From NCBI GenBank assembly GCA_964016885.1, contig OZ024751.1, positions 17,794,001 through 17,858,000 on the forward strand: a DNA stretch of 64,000 bases. The letters run 5' to 3'. The notes beneath the pieces were generated by a model, which did no database searches, was not told the DNA's origin, and was given only the letters and a program-made list of their open reading frames with translations. Position numbers and translations under genes: made by a program. Positions 1,557 to 61,207 of the stretch are shown one piece after another; position 1 is the first letter of the stretch, and every line of letters starts with the position of its first letter. The DNA comes from Eledone cirrhosa (Eukaryota).

Positions 1557-1750
1557 AACGAAGGAAATGTGGTAAGGAACCAGATGGACCATAACGCACC
1601 AAAGTACTCAATACTTAGGGTAGTAGAGTTGGTAATAGGAACGAGTGGGACTCCGACTGTTGAGCTCAAGCCGTTTCGACACCTTTTTAGTCCAGAATTA
1701 GCTGTCGAAACGGCTTGAGCTCAGCCGTCGGGGTTCCACTCGTTCCTATA
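1557..1750 (-). mobile_element. Fold-back family B (tail plus palindrome) between (TA)n tracts
   Basis: ataggaacgagtggg...gccgtttcgaca is mirrored by tgtcgaaacggc...ccactcgttcctat. The ~75-bp tail recurs at 17455, 20261, 28120, 44900 and 62084. Confidence 0.85.
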
Positions 1751-7629: not shown

Positions 7630-7662
<33 letters not shown>

Positions 7663-7671
<9 letters not shown>

Positions 7672-8119
7672 GTATAGAAATTTTGTATTCGAAAGAAAAA
7701 CGATTTTAGGAAGCCGTAGCTATGAGAACACCGGGGAGGGGGGGGACGATCGCCCTCTGGTGTTGTCCAGCAGAAGCAAGGGGGACAACCGTCTATGCAT
7801 TTCAGGTTTGACTGGCCTTCGTCAGGACGATCCCTCCCACTGCTCTGCGACTGCTGGACTTGAAAACAGCCGAGAATATATAGTTTTCTCGTCTGTGACA
7901 ATGAGGTGATTAATCTCATTTGCATATGAAGCTGCACAAGTTAAGCTCAAATTGTCAAGCCTGAAATGCATAGACGGTTGTCCCCTTTGCTTCTGCTGGA
8001 CAATACCAGAGGGCGTTAACCCCCGGTGTCCGCATAGCAACGGCTTCCTAATATCCTATTTCTTTCGAAATACGAAATTTCTATACATATTGTATAAAGC
8101 TATGCTTGAAGCGAAATCC

Positions 8120-8125
<6 letters not shown>
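7663..8125. mobile_element. Fold-back family E: ~145-bp inverted arms, ~140-bp centre, ~30-bp tail, inserted in (TA)n
   Basis: 7663-7812 is the reverse complement of 7954-8095. Confidence 0.9.
7790..7829 (-). ncRNA. Minimal type I hammerhead ribozyme (family E)
   Basis: Minus strand reads CGTC-CTGACGA-AGGccagtcaaaCCT-GAA-ATGCAT-A-GACG: perfect core, 4-bp stem I, palindromic stem III ATGCAT. Confidence 0.88.
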
Positions 8126-8147
<22 letters not shown>

Positions 8148-8152
<5 letters not shown>

Positions 8153-8500
8153 CGATATTAAACAAATGGAAACTATATTTATAAAACCATATTTATTTCA
8201 TTATACATATTTCAGGGATACCATATTAGAAATATGGCATGCCTTCTTCGGATAAAATACAATATATATGCAGTTTTATAAATAAATTTGACGTACCATA
8301 AATATTGTTCAACTTCCATTTAAAAAAGTTGGTTTCTAATACGGTATCCCTGAAATATGTATAATGAAATAAATATGGTTTTATAAATATAGTTTCCATT
8401 TGTTTAATATCGTATATCTACTCCAAAACTTGTTGAGTGCTTTATATTAGTTATAAAATATTTACTCGTTGTAACCCAACAATTTTAAATAAAACTTTTG
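8148..8500. mobile_element. Fold-back family F copy with tail; variant hammerhead (core CCGAAGA) on the minus strand at 8194-8259
   Basis: 8148-8222 mirrors 8343-8417. Minus strand reads TATTTTAT-CCGAAGA-AGG...CCT-GAA-ATATGTAT-A-ATGAAATA. Confidence 0.8.
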
Positions 8501-8501
8501 C

Positions 8502-8563
<62 letters not shown>

Positions 8564-8606
8564 ATGAGAATAAACGTGCTGCCTGGTTGCAAATGGGTTA
8601 CATATG

Positions 8607-8680
8607 AATAAAGTGGTCCTTCGTCAGTGACCTTCCAGCCTGTGATGGTTGGAAGATCACTGAAGAAGGACCACTTTATT
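8607..8680. repeat. Short fold-back (family L) with CTGANGA in each arm; relatives at 59441-59492 and 61095-61152
   Basis: aataaagtggtccttcgtcagtgaccttcca is mirrored by tggaagatcactgaagaaggaccactttatt. Confidence 0.7.
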
Positions 8681-8682
8681 AA

Positions 8683-8778
<96 letters not shown>

Positions 8779-8836
8779 TGTATGTGTGAATATTGATCTA
8801 ACTATCTATATATGTATATATTATATATATATACAT

Positions 8837-9024
8837 ATAAGTTTATCCCGGGTTCAATCGGGGGAAACAACAGTAAGTAACGTACTCATTAGATAGCAGA
8901 GTATACATATTTAATATAGAAATGGCTTCTACAGAACTAGAACTGTTTCATTCAGGAGAAATCACCAGGAAGTCCTGGTGACTTCTACTGAATGAAACTG
9001 TTCTCGTCCTGTAGAAGCCATTTA
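8837..9024. mobile_element. Fold-back family A
   Basis: Tail ataagtttatcccgggttcaatcggg followed by the palindrome aaatggcttctac...gtagaagccattt. Confidence 0.8.
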
Positions 9025-9040
9025 TATATATATATATATA

Positions 9041-9087
<47 letters not shown>

Positions 9088-9089
<2 letters not shown>

Positions 9090-9272
9090 GGCGGTGAATT
9101 GGCAGTATGGGTAGAGGGTCTGACGCCATGCTTTCTAGCATAGTTACGTCCCTTTACATTCTGAGTTCAAATCCCGCCGAGGTTAGCTTTGCCTTTCATC
9201 CTTACGGGGTCGATAAAATAAAGTACCAGTAATGTACTGGGTAATTGCTGGCCTTGTGCCTAAAGTAGAAAC

Positions 9273-9276
<4 letters not shown>
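9088..9276 (+). mobile_element. tRNA-derived SINE copy
   Basis: Full match to the 1135 family. Confidence 0.85.
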
Positions 9277-28925: not shown

Positions 28926-30189
28926 CATATACACGCACTCACATACGAACACAGGCTCAGACACGCACGCGCACACATATATATCCAACATACACACAAA
29001 CACAAACACCACTAACACAACTGCTGCCACGGTCCATGGCCCCGTGACCTGTCGTCTGCTTGCAAATTTACCCCTTGAAATTTTGGCACCTCGCCCATCG
29101 TTCTATACTCCACGTATACACACACGCACAAACACTCACCACACACTGAGACATGCACACATATACACATAAAGAGATATACACCGACAAGTACATACAC
29201 ATACACACACGCACACATATTCAGACACACAAAAATATTCTCACGCACAGACATGCACACCAAATGTCACGTTTTGTATCCACTCTCAACCATCAATGTA
29301 TACGCATGCACACACACAAACTCACACACATAGACAACAGAAAACAAGAACACACACATACAGACAAACTCACACACACACACATACAAACACGCACACA
29401 TACAAACTCACACACACATCAACAAAAACACGAACACACACACACAAACTCATACACATGGACAACAAAAATACGAACACACACACAAACTCACACATAG
29501 ACAACAAAAACACGAACGCACGCACACACACAAACTCACACACAGCAACAAAATGTCAAACACACACACAAACAAACTCAAACACATAGACAGGAAAAAC
29601 ACGAACACACACACACGCATACGTACATTCACTCACTAAAATTCACAGACGCGCACATATACTCACGATCACATGGACACATAGATATATACACATACAG
29701 AGAGAGACACACACACTGTCATACAGATATATGCACACCAAACGCCATCTTGTCCCCACGATTATAAAACCGGATTTATAACACTTATCCTTGCTATTCC
29801 TAAACACGAACAATTTTTGTTTAAATTACTGGTTTAAGTGTCGCTCCTGACTCTCATCCCCACCCTCTCCCGATATCTCTCCCTCGCCCCTCTAATGCTC
29901 CTCTCTCTCTTCCTCTCTCTCTCTCTCCCTCTCTCTGTTTTTCTCTAGCGACTGATTTTGTTTGTTTTACACACATACAAGCATAATATACATGCATGTA
30001 TAAATTATTGTAGTAAGTATATATAATATAATATAAAATAAAACAAGGACGAGTGGTTACGCCTTCATTATGTTTATTGGTTGGTGACGTGCGTTTCGCC
30101 ACCGATCAGCTCAAGGTTCGATCTGCATAGATCTAGCCCCCATTCTATAATCCGCAGCTCGTCAGACCCTCTTAGTGATAATAAAAAAA

Positions 30190-31580
30190 AATATTTGATC
30201 GGGGTCTGGTTCGGACCGGACCTCCAGGTGGAGAAAAACTGGAACGAGGTCACGGCCAGGGAATTTGCGCTCACCCAGAAGTGGGCAGAGTGCAAACTAT
30301 CCTTGAAAGGTCAAGCGGAGGTGGTGAACACTTTCATAGCGTCCGTCATCTACTACCGCTTGACCGTCGTGCCTTGTTCCCGTGAATACCTCGCCAAGAT
30401 GGAACGCATGCTCTTCCAGTTCCTTTGGAAGTAGAAGGCTCCACTGGTGGGGAGATCCGTCTGCTGCCAGCACCCTTCCAACGGAGGGCTGGGGATGCCG
30501 TGGCTGATGATGCGCAAGCACGCTCTGAGGCTACGGCATCTCCAGGTATTCCTCACCGACCAACCGGTGTGGGCCCCGTTTGTGAGACAGGCCTTCCCGC
30601 AACATGTCTCGCTGACGGAGCTGCAGTCTTGCGTCAAGCGGAGACCAAAGAAAATGGGCGCCTGACACATTGAATGCGCTCAGGCGCTCACAGTTTTCTG
30701 TTAAGCAGGCACAGCAATCAGTGGTGATTCCATGTTGTCATTCTATAGAGGGATGATATGTTACAAGTGCGACGACGTGCTCGGAGAGACTCTGGGCGTC
30801 GAAGACGATGAGCTCACCTGTCTGTTTGGTAGGACTTTCCGCCCGGGATCTATGGATAATTTCCAAAGGACTCTGGCCTGGCAGGGCTACCGAGGAGCTC
30901 TCCCAGTACGCAATAAGATCTACACGCACGGGCGCCCTCAAAGAGGACGTTTCCAGGATGTGAGCGCGACATTGAAACCACTCTGCACGCAATTGTACAC
31001 AGCCCGGGCGTAACCGACCTGTGGAACTACGCAGAATAAATGCTGTCGCGTGTGGGACAAATCCAGTTGACTGCCGAGTCCATAGTAAGGATCAAACCGC
31101 TATCTTCATTTAAAAACGAAAGAGAGGCGGTTTTCCTCTGTATAGTGGCTATGGTAAAAGAGGTTATATGGTGGACAAGATTGAGCGGACTGCGGACACA
31201 TACCTTTCTCTCCCTGACAACAACTGATTCCCTTCTTTAGGTACCACTTTAGATGGAGAATCAGAATGGCGAGAGAGCACTGCACCCCAGTAAATTTACT
31301 GAAAGGTGGGTGAATGTGGCAAAAATGGCCCGAGTGATTAGGTCTTTGTTTATAAGCCTGAAGGTTGAAGAAGAGAGCAAAAGGAAGAAAGGAGCACTTG
31401 AAAAACATGCTCCTGGAGTTGAGGGTTGTTCTATCGACGGGATATACGCCTCCCCTCTATTGGGGATTTGATTGTTATATTTTAATGTTAAAACTTTTTA
31501 CACGACAGTATGTAAAATCCCCACCATAAGTCTTTATATGATCCCCTTTTCTTGTGCGCCCTTGTTGCAAATAAAGAAAT
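30190..31580 (+). pseudogene. 5'-truncated, decayed Tx1/L1-like non-LTR retrotransposon (ORF2 post-RT region and 3' UTR)
   Basis: LIGVWFG...LSLKGQAEVVNTFIASVIYY...FQFLWK*...GGLGMP matches the LGxxF, LSxxG+, FxW and GGLG motifs of L1/Tx1 ORF2. Several stops and frameshifts; ends in AATAAAGAAA followed by (TATC)-like repeats. Confidence 0.88.
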
Positions 31581-32052
31581 ATATCTATTTATCTATTTAT
31601 CTAATTATCTATCTACCTATCTATCTACCTAATTATCTATCCATCTCAGTCACTCCCAAACTCCCATAATTAATTAATTAATCAATATTGTCTTTTGTCT
31701 ATAATTATTACTATCTCTCTGACACTGTTCCTCCTTCTTCCACTTTCCCACTTGTCTAAACCTATCATTGTTTCTCTCTGTCAATCTATTTAACTTTCAT
31801 CTTTCTACCTATTCTCTCTCGTTCGTTTTTAATTCTTCAATTCCTTTATCTTCCCTCTCTCTATAATAGACTCTTTATTTCTCTCTATTAGCCGTCTTTT
31901 TCTAAGTTCTACACCTCCCTCAATATCTATCTATCTATCTATCTAGCCATCTACCTATCTATCTATCTACCTACGTATCTATCTATCTATCTATCTATCT
32001 ACCTCTATCTATCTATCTAGCTAGCTAGCTATCTACCTATCTATCTATCTAT

Positions 32053-32372
32053 TGGGTGAAAGTGGCGAGAATGGCCCGTGTGAATGGGCCTTCACTCTAC
32101 ATCAGACTATAGGTGAGGAAGATGAAAGACCAAGACAGCACCCCTTCTCTGTGCTCCTGAGGAAAAGGGTTGCACACTTTTTTCGGGGGGTGGGCGAACC
32201 CCCAAGGCGCCTCCTCTCTATTGAGGATTTTGTTATAAATTTTATTCTGTTATATTTTATTTTATTTTTATATTTTGTTATTGCCTCCTCCTTATTGAGG
32301 ACGCCTTGTTTTGTAAACTCCCCCCATTGTACTTGTCCCACTTTTGATGCCCTGGTGGCAAATAAAAGAAAC
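32053..32372 (+). mobile_element. Short 3'-end fragment of the same Tx1-like family
   Basis: gggtgaaagtggcgagaatggccc...ggtggcaaataaaagaaa, nearly identical to 33279-33510. Confidence 0.85.
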
Positions 32373-32380
32373 ATATCTAT

Positions 32381-33511
32381 CCTTTGGAAGAAGCGGGCTC
32401 CTATGGTGAGGAGATCCATCTGCTGTCAACACCTTTCGAAAGGAGGGCTGGGGATGCCGTGGCTAATGATACGTAAACACGCATTAAGGCTACGGCACCT
32501 CCAGGTATTCCTCACCGGTCAACCGGTGTGGGCCCCGTTTGTGAGGCGAGCCTTTCCCAGACTCGTCTCACTCACCGAGCTGCAATCCTGGGTCAAGCAA
32601 AGACCGAGAAAACTGGGCGCCTGGCACACCGAGTGTGCCCAGGCGCTCACGGCTCTCTGGCAGGCGGACCCGGCTGTCAGTGGAGAATCCACCTCGTCAT
32701 TCTATAGAGGGCTGGTGGTTAGCAGGTGCGACGACACCCTCGCAGAAGCCCTAGGCATGGAGGAAGACGAACTTGACAACCTGTTCGGTAGGACATTCAG
32801 CCCGGGACCCATGGATAACTTTCAGAGGTCCCTGGCTTGGCAGTGCTACCGAGGGACTCTGCCCGTTCGAGAAAGGCTCTACAGACACGGGCGCCCGGGT
32901 AGGGACCCCTCGAAAAAGATCTGTCCCAGATGCGTGTGCGACGAGGAAACCGTTGCACACGCATTGGTACACTGCTCGGGCATTGCCGATCTGTGGGGCT
33001 ATGTCGAACAACTGCTGTCAAGGGTGGGACCGATCCGGTTGACCACCGAGTCTATTGTAACGATCAAGCCACCTCCCCTCTTCAAAAACGAAGGAGAGGC
33101 GGTGTTTCAGTGCGTAATAGCCATGGCGAAAGAGGTTGTATGGTGGACGCGTCTGAAAGGACTGAGGTCAGACATCTTTCTCTCTGCCAACAACTGGTCC
33201 TTTTCTTCCGATACCATTTCGGAAGAAGGATCAGGATGGAGAGAGAGGTGCTGCACCCCAGCCGTGTTTATGAAAGATGGGTGAAAGTGGCGAGAATGGC
33301 CCATGTGAATGGGCCTTCACTCTACATCAGACTATAAGTGGGAAGATGAAAAATCAAGGGAGCACCCCCGCTCTGTGCTCCAGAGGAGAAGGGTTGTACA
33401 CTTTTTTATACATTGTTATTGCCTCCTCCTTATTGAGGACGCCTTGTTATGTAAACTCCCCCCATTGTACTTGTCCCACTTTTTGATGCCCTGGTGGCAA
33501 ATAAAAAGAAA
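32381..33511 (+). pseudogene. Tx1/L1-like ORF2 C-terminus with CCHC zinc knuckle, plus 3' UTR
   Basis: LWKKRAPMVRRSICCQHLSKGGLGMPWL...CPRCVCDEETVAHALVHC...LWGYVEQ. Frameshift near 33195. Confidence 0.9.
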
Positions 33512-38246: not shown

Positions 38247-40574
38247 CTATTTACACACATATACACACACATACATATATATATATTATATATATACACT
38301 ACCAAGTAGTAACATATACCATTCGTTGTCATCGATACAATTATAGAATTGAGATAAAATTTAAGGTGACGGGTGAAGGGTACCGAACTAATCTGGCTAT
38401 GGCATCTCTTAACAACAACAACAACAATAACATCAACAATAACATCAAAAATAACAACAACAATAACAACAACATTAACATCAACAATAACAACAACAAT
38501 AACAACAACAATAACATCAACAATAACATCAACAATAACAACAATAACAACAACATTAACATCAACAATAACAACAACAATAACATCAACAATAACAACA
38601 ACAATAACATCAACAATAACATCAACAACAACAACAACAATAACATCACAATAACAACAATAACATCAACAATAACAACAACAAAACAACAACAAAACAA
38701 CAACAATAACAACAACAATAACATCAACAATAACAACAACAAAACAACAACAATAACATCAACAATAACATTAACAATAGCAACATTAACATCAACAATA
38801 ACAACAACAACAACAATAACATCAACAATAACATCAACAATAACATCAACAAAAACATCAACAATAACAACAATAACATCAACAATAACAACAACAAAAC
38901 AACAACAATACAAACAATAACAACAAAGACAGCAGCAACAACTTCAACAATACATCAACAACAACAGCAACAATCCCATCATCATCAACAACAACAACAA
39001 CAATGACGACACCAACAGCTATAGCAACAACAACAACAGCAACAACGACACCAACAGCTATACCAACAACAACAACAATGACGACACCAACAGCAATACC
39101 ACCACCACCAACAACAACAACGACACCAACAGCAATACCAACAACAGCAACAACAATAACAACAGCAACAGCAATACCACCACCAACAACAACAACAACA
39201 ATGACACCAACAGCAATACCACCACCACCAACAACAACAACAACAACAATGACACCAACAGCAATACCACCACCAACAAAAGCAACAACGACACCAACAA
39301 CAACAACGACACCAACAACAATACCAACAACAACAACAACGACACCAGCAGCTATACCATCAACAACAACAACGACACTAACAGCTATACCACCACCACC
39401 AACAACAATACCAACTCCAACAACAACAACAACAATGACGACACCAACACCAATAACATCAACATCTCTTGGTGATAGTTACGTATGGCTGGTTGATAGT
39501 GGTGATGGCATGTTAGGTAGAAGAGGGCATGGGTGGAGCGGTAGGTTAGTTGAAGGGTGGGAGAGAATCAAGTGGGGGGGATAAGATAGCAGATTGTAAG
39601 GAGGGGTGAGGCATGGATTGTAAGGTGAAGGAGCGTGGATTGTAAGGAGGGGGGCACGGGTTGTAAAGAACTGTAAGTAGACAGAGAGGGGGGGGGGCGA
39701 CTCTAAGGAGAGGAGACGGGGTTGTATGTATAGAGATGATAGTGTGGTATTGATAGAGAGAAGTAGCATAGGTGGTGATAGTTGTGGTGGTGGGTTGGTT
39801 GTGGTGGAGGTGGCAGTGATAGTTGTGGACGAGGATTGATTGTGGAGGTGGTGGTGGTGGTGGTAGAGGTGGCGGTGATAGTTGTGGAAGAGGGTTGGTT
39901 GTGGAGGAGGTGGCAGTGATAGTTGTGGACGAGGATTGATTGTGGAGGTGGTGGTGGTGGTGGTAGAGGTGGCGGTGATAGTTGTGGAAGAGGGTTGGTT
40001 GTGGAGGAGGTGGTGGTGATGGTATTGGTGGCAGTGGTGGCGGTGATAGTTGTGGAGGAGGATTGGGTGTGGAAGAGGTGGTGGTGGTGGTGGGGTTAGT
40101 CGTCGTCAAAACATATATACATTTATATATAATAGGGAGTTGACGGACCCAGCATATTTATTAATTTCTCTGTCTGCATATGTTATACAACAATGCATAA
40201 TCGGTGTATGTGGCTTCATCAGCGGGTATCGCCTAATCAATAACCAATGGATCGACAGAATCCAAACCCCAGCCCAAGCCGGCTATGACTGTTTGTGACG
40301 GCCGTACAGAGTAAAGTGATTAGCAACTGGAATCCGAAACAATTCTGTCTCTCGACCAGCGACCGATTTACAAACTTTACATGGTGGCGGAAGAATAGAA
40401 AACAAAGCTTTTCGTTCCCGTCAAAAGCTCTCAGCCAACGTTATATATACACAAATATTGGTTCGTCAAGTATGAAATGTGTAGAAATTTATATTTAAAA
40501 AAATAGAAATTTCTACAAGTTTCATACTTGATGACCCTATACATACATTACATTATACATTACATACCTACATG

Positions 40575-41137
<563 letters not shown>

Positions 41138-57479: not shown

Positions 57480-57975
57480 TAACAGATATGAAGCACTCTA
57501 CAATGAAATATTTTTATCTGGAGTATTATAATATTAATAATAGTAATAAATGGAAAATATCACTATAGCATCATATTTATTTTATTATACATATTTCAAG
57601 GATACCAAATTACAGTATGCTTTCATCAGATAAAATAAACATTTGATGTATAAGATAGTGGCATACACAAAGTATAAACTTCCAACGCCAGCTTACAGTG
57701 GGTGAACCCAACATAAGCGTCCGAAGTCGTTCATCAGAAGGACATCCATATTAAATTTTCCTTCTGATGAACGGTTTCGGACACCTCTGTTGAGGTCGCC
57801 TGTCTTCGTGAAACATGAACTTCACTGAACTTATAACATGAAGTTATATCTGTCGAAAGCATACTGAAATATTAGTACCCTTGAAATACGTATGATAAAA
57901 TACGTATGGTTTTATAAAGATATTTTTCATTTGTTGATACTCCGGATAAAGCTGTTGAGTGCTTCTAATCTGTTG
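57480..57975. mobile_element. Old, diverged family F fold-back with an internal second hairpin (57721-57780)
   Basis: aacagatatgaagcactc...tttcaaggatac is imperfectly mirrored by gtacccttgaaatacgtat...gagtgcttctaatctgtt. Confidence 0.65.
57576..57639 (-). ncRNA. Type I hammerhead ribozyme (family F)
   Basis: TTTATTTTAT-CTGATGA-AAGcATAC...GTATcCTT-GAA-ATATGTAT-A-ATAAAATAAA. Confidence 0.8.
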
Positions 57976-58007
57976 TAAAAGTAAAGGAAAAGAGAGTGCT
58001 CTATGTT

Positions 58008-59442: not shown

Positions 59443-59552
59443 GATGAAATACCAATGATGGTTGGCAAATCACTGATGAGGGACTAATTTTATAATATGT
59501 AATCCATGTGCAACCATGCAGTATTCTTCTCCCCATGTTTTTCATATATATA

Positions 59553-60500: not shown

Positions 60501-60543
<43 letters not shown>

Positions 60544-61207
60544 GTAACCCATTAGCAACCACGCAGCACGTTTATTCTCATATTTACACATATTTTTTCC
60601 CCCGCTGTGACCCGTCTATTTCGTTCTTACTGCTTCCTCTTTCTCTGTATCTTTACCCTCTCTAACAGTCACTCTCTCTGTTAGCCTCTTCCTCACCCTT
60701 CACTCACTCACTCTCTGTTACTACCTCTCCTCCTCCTCCTTCTTCCCGTTTGACCTGTGCGTAATTCTTTTCTTTCGCACCCTTGGTCAGGCAGATCGCT
60801 TTTTTTCTCTTTCTCGTCTACGATTTCACAGACTAGATCCCTTCTTCCTCCCGTTAGACCTGTACGGAATTCCTTCCTTGCTCACATTCCAACCAGGTTT
60901 GATGGTCTTTATTCTCTCTCGTTCACGATTTCACCGAACTTATATTCATGGAAATTTGGGACTTGACTCCTTCTTCCTCACTTTTCGTTGCTTCACCATC
61001 TTTGTTTATTTACACTCTTGTGTCCCCTCTATTTACGTGTCCCAATGATTTTTTTAGCCGTGTCTCGCACTAACCGGAGGTATATGGTCTTTAAAGCGAT
61101 GAAATACCAATGATGGTTGGAAGATCATCACTGATGAAGGACTAACTTTATTTATATATATATATATATAATCTTCTATAATCTTCGGCGAAAGCGGCGA
61201 GTACGTT

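What the first reader, a model, noticed from the sequence alone, without database searches (positions are those of the whole stretch)
7663..8125. Asymmetric fold-back: complete ribozyme in the tail-less arm, ribozyme truncated inside stem II in the tailed arm
The minus-strand arm has a perfect minimal hammerhead (7790-7829). The plus-strand arm starts at 7954 within the stem II loop (gtcaagcctGAAATGCATAGACG), lacks CTGACGA and carries an extra 3' tail. This suggests that first-strand reverse transcription stops in the ribozyme fold and a second, inverted copy is then made.
Basis: partly seen in the sequence, partly recalled or inferred. Interest (0 to 1): 0.75.

Follow-up and report, generated by a model that had tools for sequence, protein, structure and literature searches.

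The report
Head-to-head Penelope-type retroelement scar
This 460-base stretch is two shortened copies of one repeat joined head to head, one with a whole hammerhead ribozyme motif and one starting inside it; it matches the known insertion pattern of Penelope-like jumping genes, was likely made by two reverse-transcription events on one RNA, and the idea that the ribozyme fold sets the break point stays unproven.

Summary
Observation largely confirmed. A minus arm (7953 to 7662) and a plus arm (7954-8096, plus a 29-34-nt tail) are joined head to head inside (TA)n. The minus arm holds a full type I hammerhead core, though not a 'perfect' one (stem II mismatch); the plus arm starts in loop II. 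Reads show a high-copy family and that the 141-nt 'spacer' is the minus arm's own 5' part, with octamer and TATA motifs. An inverted truncated copy, a one-sided tail and a hammerhead are published hallmarks of Penelope-like elements; the scan noted such fold-backs before on other genomes. Best model: twin priming on one RNA. Clustering in the ribozyme is undecided: 14 of 17 window fold-backs end in or at a hammerhead, but the informative subsets are not significant (3 of 6, P 0.35; 3 of 5 family junctions, P 0.12-0.35). One lead: the tailed arm is the 5'-shorter one in 7 of 8 assignable cases.

The parts
7632..7667 (.). (TA)n left flank, inferred target microsatellite; merges with the tail-less 3' end
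   Evidence: sequence
7662..7953 (-). Long, tail-less arm (292 nt), 5'-truncated at 7953; pLTR-like or mini-element copy
   Evidence: alignment; depth over 7813-7949 and loose ends running on past 7942 in X1, X8, X9
7918..7925 (-). Exact octamer motif ATGCAAAT (candidate promoter element; motif recalled)
   Evidence: only exact copy in the window; 1.3% chance in shuffles of this arm; function untested
7875..7882 (-). TATA-like motif inside a small hairpin; a start near 7850-7860 is predicted
   Evidence: fold; a TATA plus Inr is described in a rotifer pLTR (PMC3846280); function untested
7765..7859 (-). Long predicted hairpin that encloses the hammerhead (extended stem I)
   Evidence: -39.1 kcal/mol, z -2.9 for 7760-7860
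7787..7832 (-). Type I minimal hammerhead: stem I 7832-7826 / 7793-7787, core 7825-7819, stem II 7818-7804 with loop II 7814-7808, GAAA 7803-7800, palindromic stem III, predicted cut between 7794 and 7793
   Evidence: compensatory stem II in another subfamily (loose ends at 7803)
7953..7954 (.). Head-to-head junction; no overlap with the family's continuation on either side
   Evidence: (loose ends behind 7942)
7954..8096 (+). Short, tailed arm; starts in loop II, 9 nt 5' of GAAA; keeps GAAA, stem III and the uncut site
8097..8125 (+). One-sided 3' tail, 29 nt (34 if counted from 8092)
8126..8151 (.). (TA)n right flank, shared with the next fold-back (8145-8450)

Best explanation
The locus is a head-to-head pair of 5'-truncated copies of one high-copy hammerhead-bearing repeat with a tail on one arm only, likely a decayed Penelope-like (PLE) insertion that was probably made by twin-primed reverse transcription of one uncleaved RNA. 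Shown: the geometry, the family membership of the spacer, the tail, the hammerhead motif, two rare letters shared by both arms, no overlap at the junction. Inferred steps: a PLE protein supplied in trans nicks both strands of a (TA)n target; one 3' end primes at an inner site (tail-less arm) and runs ahead to 7953; the other primes about 30 nt further 3' (tailed arm), trails behind, has to displace the first cDNA and stops earlier, here in loop II; the two cDNA ends are joined bluntly and filled in. On this model the ribozyme is a passenger: arms end near it mainly because it lies 40-140 nt from the 3' end and close to the RNA's likely 5' end, and any added pausing in the fold is unproven.
For: Anatomy equals the published PLE unit: inverted 5'-truncated copy, 30-40-bp tail at one end, microsatellite targets (PMC8557442); inverted pLTR, 31-bp tail and TATA (PMC3846280); minimal hammerheads 100-700 bp apart on opposite strands (PMC4209133). 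A purified PLE protein nicks and extends both strands, starts at two internal sites that bound the tail, is a predicted dimer and uses uncleaved RNA (PMC11167929). One source: both arms keep the window's letter at 7703 and 7763, where about 92% and 97% of X1 depth shows another letter; other fold-backs have arms up to 99% alike. The tailed arm is the 5'-shorter in 7 of 8 assignable cases (one-sided P 0.035; 6 of 7 by family, P 0.06). Two of these have a tailed arm that is the tail alone, abutting the other arm's 3' end in family coordinates (53235-53310 with 53323-53392; 735-806 with 801-844), the non-overlapping pattern of twin priming. No arm examined begins at the predicted cut.
Against: No PLE reverse transcriptase or GIY-YIG ORF lies at the locus (one search lists no ORF of 120 aa or more over 7662-8125), so the mobiliser is inferred. 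Displacement by a trailing enzyme is my proposal; I found no paper showing it. 12 of 22 fold-backs have spacers of 10 nt or less, which snap-back explains as easily. The fold-back at 24882-25200 breaks the tailed-short rule, and 16 of the 22 were near-symmetric or could not be assigned. The length shuffle (14 of 17) suggests more clustering at the hammerhead than a pure passenger model predicts. Shared rare letters could also come from gene conversion between arms. No target-site duplication can be read in (TA)n.
Confidence: 0.55

Rival explanations
1. Snap-back or self-priming: one long strand (cDNA, or an antisense RNA as Arkhipova proposed) folds back, primes a second strand that copies out through the tail, and endonuclease resolution trims the tail from the long arm. 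The break in loop II would be the re-priming site, not a stall.
For: PMC3846280 reads junction palindromes as self-priming; PMC8557442 ascribes the tail to endonuclease resolution; 12 of 22 spacers are 10 nt or less; it also predicts a shorter tailed arm and one source; snap-back junctions occur at low frequency with R2 (PMC11331408).
Against: This junction has a 141-nt loop, no palindrome and no overlap with the family's continuation; fold-back 1557-1749 likewise shows none against a longer family copy. Tail-only arms that stop at the tail boundary are not predicted. In vitro both strands are primed directly.
Confidence: 0.25
2. One reading: the folded or protein-bound hammerhead stalls one reverse transcriptase, so breaks pile up inside it.
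For: 14 of 17 hammerhead-bearing fold-backs have the shorter arm starting within the motif or at its 5' edge; length shuffle P 0.0003 per copy, 0.012-0.056 per family. The three clearest asymmetric cases (this one, 8148-8417, 55128-55353) have the ribozyme 142, 66 and 70 nt from the 3' end, and the break follows it. In this family 3 of 5 other junctions break at 7798, 7799 and 7806.
Against: Informative subsets are not significant: 3 of 6 against 2.1 expected (P 0.35), 2 of 5 without this locus (P 0.65), 3 of 5 read junctions (P 0.12-0.35). For 11 of the 14 hits no copy with upstream sequence exists in the window, and two families' 5' edges were set from the data. X1 depth is as high 5' of the ribozyme (203,204 at 7902-7913) as at it (194,062 at 7782-7793). 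Breaks lie in loop II or on 5' strands, after the helices are unwound (inference). Hammerhead mutants left insertion size unchanged in vitro.
Confidence: 0.15
3. Explains the clustering only, and is compatible with the best model: short arms are the norm, and several families' RNAs simply begin at the ribozyme's 5' edge, so arms run off there.
For: Median shorter arm 67 nt over 22 fold-backs; those with no visible hammerhead span 41-189 nt. In one family 8 of 10 arms, read from my hand-set centres, start 21-26 nt 5' of GAAA; one more does so apart from an internal deletion and one starts at 18. In this family a TATA motif predicts a start 20-30 nt 5' of stem I.
Against: No RNA 5' end was mapped. 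It does not explain breaks inside loop II in families that extend far upstream.
Confidence: 0.5
4. Two independent insertions into the same microsatellite, or an assembly artefact.
For: Arms are only 84-89% alike with a 9-nt indel; the junction itself was not seen among the joints shown.
Against: The arms abut with no target DNA between them; they share two rare letters; 22 like fold-backs occur in 64 kb; 5 other inverted junctions of this family occur in X1 contigs; arms 11% apart are not a read-through artefact.
Confidence: 0.05
5. Run-off at the ribozyme's own cut: the short arm is a copy of the 3' cleavage product.
For: The break lies only 19 nt from the predicted cut.
Against: The plus arm holds 19 nt 5' of the cut, including GAAA, so its template was uncut; no RNA ends at the cut were seen for the anole element.
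Confidence: 0.02

Closest known systems
Inverted insertion units of endonuclease-bearing Penelope-like elements (Penelope/Poseidon, Neptune, Nematis; e.g. Pen2a_Av, PMC3846280; Fig. 2 of PMC8557442)
   Same: Head-to-head inverted 5'-truncated copy, tail of about 30 nt on one arm, hammerhead and TATA in the repeat, microsatellite target
   Different: No ORF at this locus; both arms are very short; clade cannot be assigned; no junction palindrome here
PAc (Poseidon, Anolis) in vitro reaction, PMC11167929
   Same: Two internal start sites bounding the tail, both target strands primed, uncleaved RNA used: all fit the two arms
   Different: In the parts read it does not describe inverted products or where 5' ends fall relative to the hammerhead
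PLE minimal type I hammerheads, PMC4209133
   Same: Intact core, tiny palindromic helix III (dimer type), dual motifs on opposite strands
   Different: This copy has A-U at the foot of stem II and a decayed fourth pair; another subfamily has G-C
Metazoan non-LTR retrozymes and newt satellite 2 (PMC7229834; bioRxiv 10.64898/2026.07.22.740005; promoter via PMC2220036)
   Same: Non-coding, high copy, type I hammerhead; octamer and TATA recall the snRNA-type promoter reported for newt satellite II
   Different: No tandem array or circular RNA shown; monomer length unknown (a unit near 330 nt is only hinted at)
L1 twin priming (Ostertag and Kazazian 2001, seen only as described in PMC2246262)
   Same: Both ends of the break prime on one RNA and give a head-to-head inversion
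   Different: L1 arms do not overlap (recalled); here they overlap by about 150 nt, which needs displacement or a second template

Membership tests
EN+ Penelope-like element insertion | Adjacent inverted, 5'-truncated copy in head-to-head orientation | tested here: met
EN+ Penelope-like element insertion | 30-40-bp tail on one end only | tested here: met
   29-34 nt at 8092/8097-8125
EN+ Penelope-like element insertion | Type I hammerhead in the terminal repeat | tested here: met
EN+ Penelope-like element insertion | ORF with telomerase-like RT and GIY-YIG endonuclease, or homology to such an element's pLTR | not testable with these tools
   no ORF of 120 aa or more at the locus; no host genome held; sequence beyond 7953 seen only as 30-letter loose ends
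EN+ Penelope-like element insertion | AT-rich or microsatellite target | tested here: met
   (TA)n on both sides
EN+ Penelope-like element insertion | Target-site duplication (variable in PLEs) | tested here: inconclusive
   cannot be read inside (TA)n
Type I minimal hammerhead | Core CUGANGA, GAAA, A15.1-U16.1, H17 | tested here: met
Type I minimal hammerhead | Stems I and II with compensatory changes in the family | tested here: met
   stem II AGGC/GCCT in this subfamily, GAAC/GTTC in loose ends of X1; read from printed consensus letters, not from an alignment
Type I minimal hammerhead | G10.1-C11.1 pair | tested here: not met
   A-U in both arms' subfamily; G-C in the other subfamily
Type I minimal hammerhead | Rfam hammerhead model match | tested here: not met
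   no hammerhead model hit anywhere in the window
Type I minimal hammerhead | Self-cleavage (as a dimer) | not testable with these tools
   monomer fold with stem III closed is only -0.8 kcal/mol, as expected for a dimer type
Non-LTR retrozyme | Tandem 170-400-nt monomers, each with a hammerhead | tested here: inconclusive
   no other copy in the window; the tail's last 9 letters match 8 of 9 letters of my by-eye majority of three loose ends beyond 7942, a weak hint of a circular permutation
Non-LTR retrozyme | Expressed circular RNA | not testable with these tools
   no RNA run was available to lay
L1-type twin priming product | Non-overlapping inverted segments | tested here: not met
   arms overlap by about 150 nt here; met in two other fold-backs
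MITE or foldback DNA transposon | Fixed terminal inverted repeats with constant internal ends | tested here: not met
   junctions differ from copy to copy and one arm has a tail

The most novel reading that the evidence does not exclude
PLE fold-backs record a race between two reverse transcriptases on one RNA: the tail-primed one always trails and tends to stop inside the uncleaved, protein-bound hammerhead. The ribozyme would then have a cleavage-independent job, as a stop or hand-over point in integration, readable from thousands of genomic scars.
Probability: 0.15. Interest if true: 0.6.

Novelty: new member of a known kind. Interest (0 to 1): 0.25.

Why it matters
As one locus it is an ordinary decayed retroelement scar. 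Its value is as a pointer. How PLEs make inverted, one-tailed insertions and what their hammerheads do are stated open questions (PMC8557442, PMC11167929). This genome holds very many such scars (22 fold-backs catalogued in 64 kb), so two rules can be tested by computation alone: whether the tailed arm is always the 5'-shorter, and whether stops are enriched in the ribozyme. A yes to the first would favour twin priming with displacement; a yes to the second would give the ribozyme a role that needs no cleavage.

Tried and rejected
Whole-genome mapping of breakpoints: no genome held. Exact-pattern scans of metagenome contigs for this family and for the neighbouring family: 0 matches each. Rfam: no hammerhead hit. 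Sequencing runs: no RNA holder listed. Run X4 gave 1 contig only; it begins at the letter homologous to the plus arm's start, which is one observation and was not counted. Joint rows marked 'skips, between: not known' (8 of 15 shown) and 2 skip rows with letters between were left out of the breakpoint count, as likely diverged middles or deletions; the 2 unshown rows were left out too. The row 7806 to 7959 was re-read as a fold-back with both arms starting in stem II and counted. The microhomology count is zero by construction (the alignment is extended as far as it matches) and was discarded; only comparison with family continuations was used. The octamer-plus-TCACC pattern was designed from the sequence, so its shuffle value is no evidence; the PSE reading is weak (spacing to TATA 27 nt against about 35 recalled for human genes; no usable consensus in the passages). 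Depth dips at 7734-7757 and 7842-7853 follow this copy's own indels and were not read as truncation. Earlier scan notes: nothing by sequence, place or two word searches. ARAGORN found no tRNA gene.

Full report
Setting. The window is eukaryotic and rich in simple repeats (34% masked); no genome is held.

Observation. The minus strand 7812-7662 aligns to the plus strand 7954-8096 (83.6% over 152 columns, E 5.6e-42), and the family has no other copy in the window. The minus arm carries a type I hammerhead: stem I, CTGACGA (7825-7819), stem II, GAAA (7803-7800), a palindromic one-pair stem III and a predicted cut after 7794. It sits in a longer predicted hairpin, 7765-7859 (z -2.9). The plus arm starts at the third letter of loop II, 9 nt before GAAA, and has a tail of 29-34 nt. 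Both flanks are (TA)n. Rfam finds no hammerhead.

Reads. I laid 4 of the 10 listed runs on 7650-7980 at 80% likeness: 2792 contigs from X1, 1 from X4, 1070 and 837 RAD reads from X8 and X9. The family is high-copy. The 141-nt spacer is part of it: X1 depth is 203,204 at 7902-7913 and 194,062 at 7782-7793 (the tool warns that this is no copy number, and RAD depth follows restriction sites: X8 394 against 581, X9 266 against 448). Other copies run on past 7942 with letters that match the window to 7953 and then differ, so the minus arm is itself truncated at 7953, with no overlap at the junction. Loose ends at 7803 show a subfamily whose stem II differs at three pairs on both sides and still pairs, which supports a selected structure. 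Both arms keep the window's letter at 7703 and 7763, where about 92% and 97% of X1 depth differs: likely one source RNA, though conversion between arms is possible. Of 15 joints shown (17 in all), 5 are inverted junctions: 7798/7834, 7799/7877, 7835/7895, 7864/7942 and 7806/7807 (the last re-read from a 'skip' onto the second arm). This locus's own junction was not among them.

The spacer, read on the minus strand, holds an exact octamer (7925-7918; the only one in the window; 1.3% by chance in this arm) and a TATA motif (7882-7875), which would put a start near 7850-7860. PMC3846280 describes a TATA and Inr in a pLTR, and PMC2220036 cites an snRNA-type promoter for the hammerhead-bearing newt satellite II (the original was not read). 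Promoter function is untested and the PSE likeness is weak.

Window-wide control. From self-comparison I picked 22 head-to-head fold-backs by hand and aligned their arms; 17 show a hammerhead-type GAAA region and 5 do not. In 14 of 17 the shorter arm starts within the motif or at its 5' edge. Against shuffled arm lengths this gives P 0.0003 per copy and 0.012-0.056 per family. But 11 of the 14 belong to three families with no upstream sequence in the window, where the RNA may simply begin there, and two of those 5' edges were set from the data. For the 6 fold-backs whose families provably extend upstream, 3 break inside against 2.1 expected (P 0.35; 2 of 5, P 0.65, without this locus). For this family's read junctions, 3 of 5 (P 0.12-0.35 depending on the detectable range and on which of two narrow spans is used; P 0.28-0.67 for the long hairpin). 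A second pattern: where the 5' extents differ and the spacer can be assigned, the tailed arm is the shorter in 7 of 8 (5 of 6 among the 22, plus two further pairs whose tailed arm is the tail alone); one-sided P 0.035, by family 0.06. The exception is 24882-25200. 12 of 22 spacers are 10 nt or less.

Mechanism. Neither arm can be a plain copy of the other, since each has sequence the other lacks. Both include the uncut site, so the template was uncleaved. PMC11167929 shows a PLE protein that nicks and extends both strands, starts at two internal sites bounding the tail, and gives the same insertion size with dead hammerheads. The simplest fit is twin priming on one RNA, with the tail-primed enzyme trailing and stopping at or behind the other (inferred, 0.55; the displacement step is my proposal). 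It accounts for one source, tail asymmetry, tailed-short pairs, tail-only arms and near-symmetric pairs. Snap-back or antisense self-priming with endonuclease resolution (PMC3846280, PMC8557442) predicts much of the same and stays a real rival (0.25), though this junction has no palindrome or overlap. A stall caused by the fold is less likely (0.15): by loop II the enzyme has already copied the 3' strands of all three helices (inference).

Comparison and novelty. The inverted truncated copy and one-sided tail are described in PMC8557442 and PMC3846280; opposite-strand hammerhead pairs in PMC4209133. It works like an EN+ PLE insertion and meets the DNA-level features that I could test; the protein-level feature could not be tested. 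Retrozyme membership is open. In six searches of the held library I found no paper that maps PLE inversion points relative to the hammerhead or relates tail state to arm length; subscription papers and older Penelope work are not in that library. Earlier scan notes on other genomes call such fold-backs ordinary PLE scars; I did not check them.

What I read. PMC11167929: parts 1-2 of 4 (main text and start of methods). PMC4209133: parts 1-2 of 4 (results, discussion). bioRxiv 10.64898/2026.07.22.740005: part 1 of 5. Passages only: PMC8557442, PMC3846280, PMC7229834, PMC11331408, PMC13282606, PMC2220036, PMC1796607, PMC3499247, PMC2246262. No supplements were opened; Fig. S2 of PMC11167929 (genomic coverage of insertion ends) may bear on where 5' ends fall.

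Verdict. Real, a new member of a known kind, interest 0.25. The ribozyme-stop reading has probability about 0.15 and would deserve about 0.6.

Noticed in passing
window 24882-25200: Fold-back with 94% alike arms and a short tail whose long, tailed arm begins with a tRNA-like head (Rfam tRNA 25003-25073, 31.4 bits; ARAGORN negative); the tail-less arm starts in the T-arm. A tRNA-headed element that seems to insert in PLE fashion, with no hammerhead seen.
   Followed up: partly
window 8145-8450 and 55128-55400: Two more fold-backs of other families with the same asymmetry as the finding: whole hammerhead in the tail-less arm, tailed arm starting inside it; arms 99% and 96% alike.
   Followed up: yes
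window 53235-53392 and 735-844: Head-to-head pairs whose tailed arm is the tail alone, with no or 4 nt overlap with the other arm in family coordinates.
   Followed up: yes
window 1557-1634, 8834-8916, 20525-20600, 53446-53587: One-sided tails of about 70-140 nt in four families, well above the 30-40 bp usually quoted.
   Followed up: no
window 8834-9026, 17594-17800, 19679-19860, 40574-40755, 40871-41073: Five fold-backs of one family in which nearly all arms start 21-26 nt 5' of GAAA, at the edge of stem I: a likely fixed RNA 5' end.
   Followed up: partly
window 57545-57990: Complex fold-back with a second CTGATGA core near the junction on both arms, upstream of the main hammerhead.
   Followed up: no
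window 8558-8690, 59443-59493, 61098-61151, 60539-60585: Family with a CTGANGA core close to its 3' end and an octamer-like motif in its tail; hammerhead topology unclear.
   Followed up: no
window 8097-8125 with loose ends beyond 7942: The end of the tail resembles the far end of the sequence that precedes the minus arm in other copies (8 of 9 letters, by eye), hinting at a tandem unit near 330 nt.
   Followed up: partly
window 50820, 60038, 61417 (+): Solo minimal hammerhead cores from three further families.
   Followed up: no
window 9088-9275 and about 15 other places: Abundant 190-bp SINE; its central part resembles the Nin-type domain of mollusc SINEs (recalled, untested).
   Followed up: no
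window 30042-33511: Duplicated GC-richer block with a 419-aa open frame at 32025-33284 that looks like the C-terminal part of a non-LTR retrotransposon ORF2 (by eye, not scanned).
   Followed up: no
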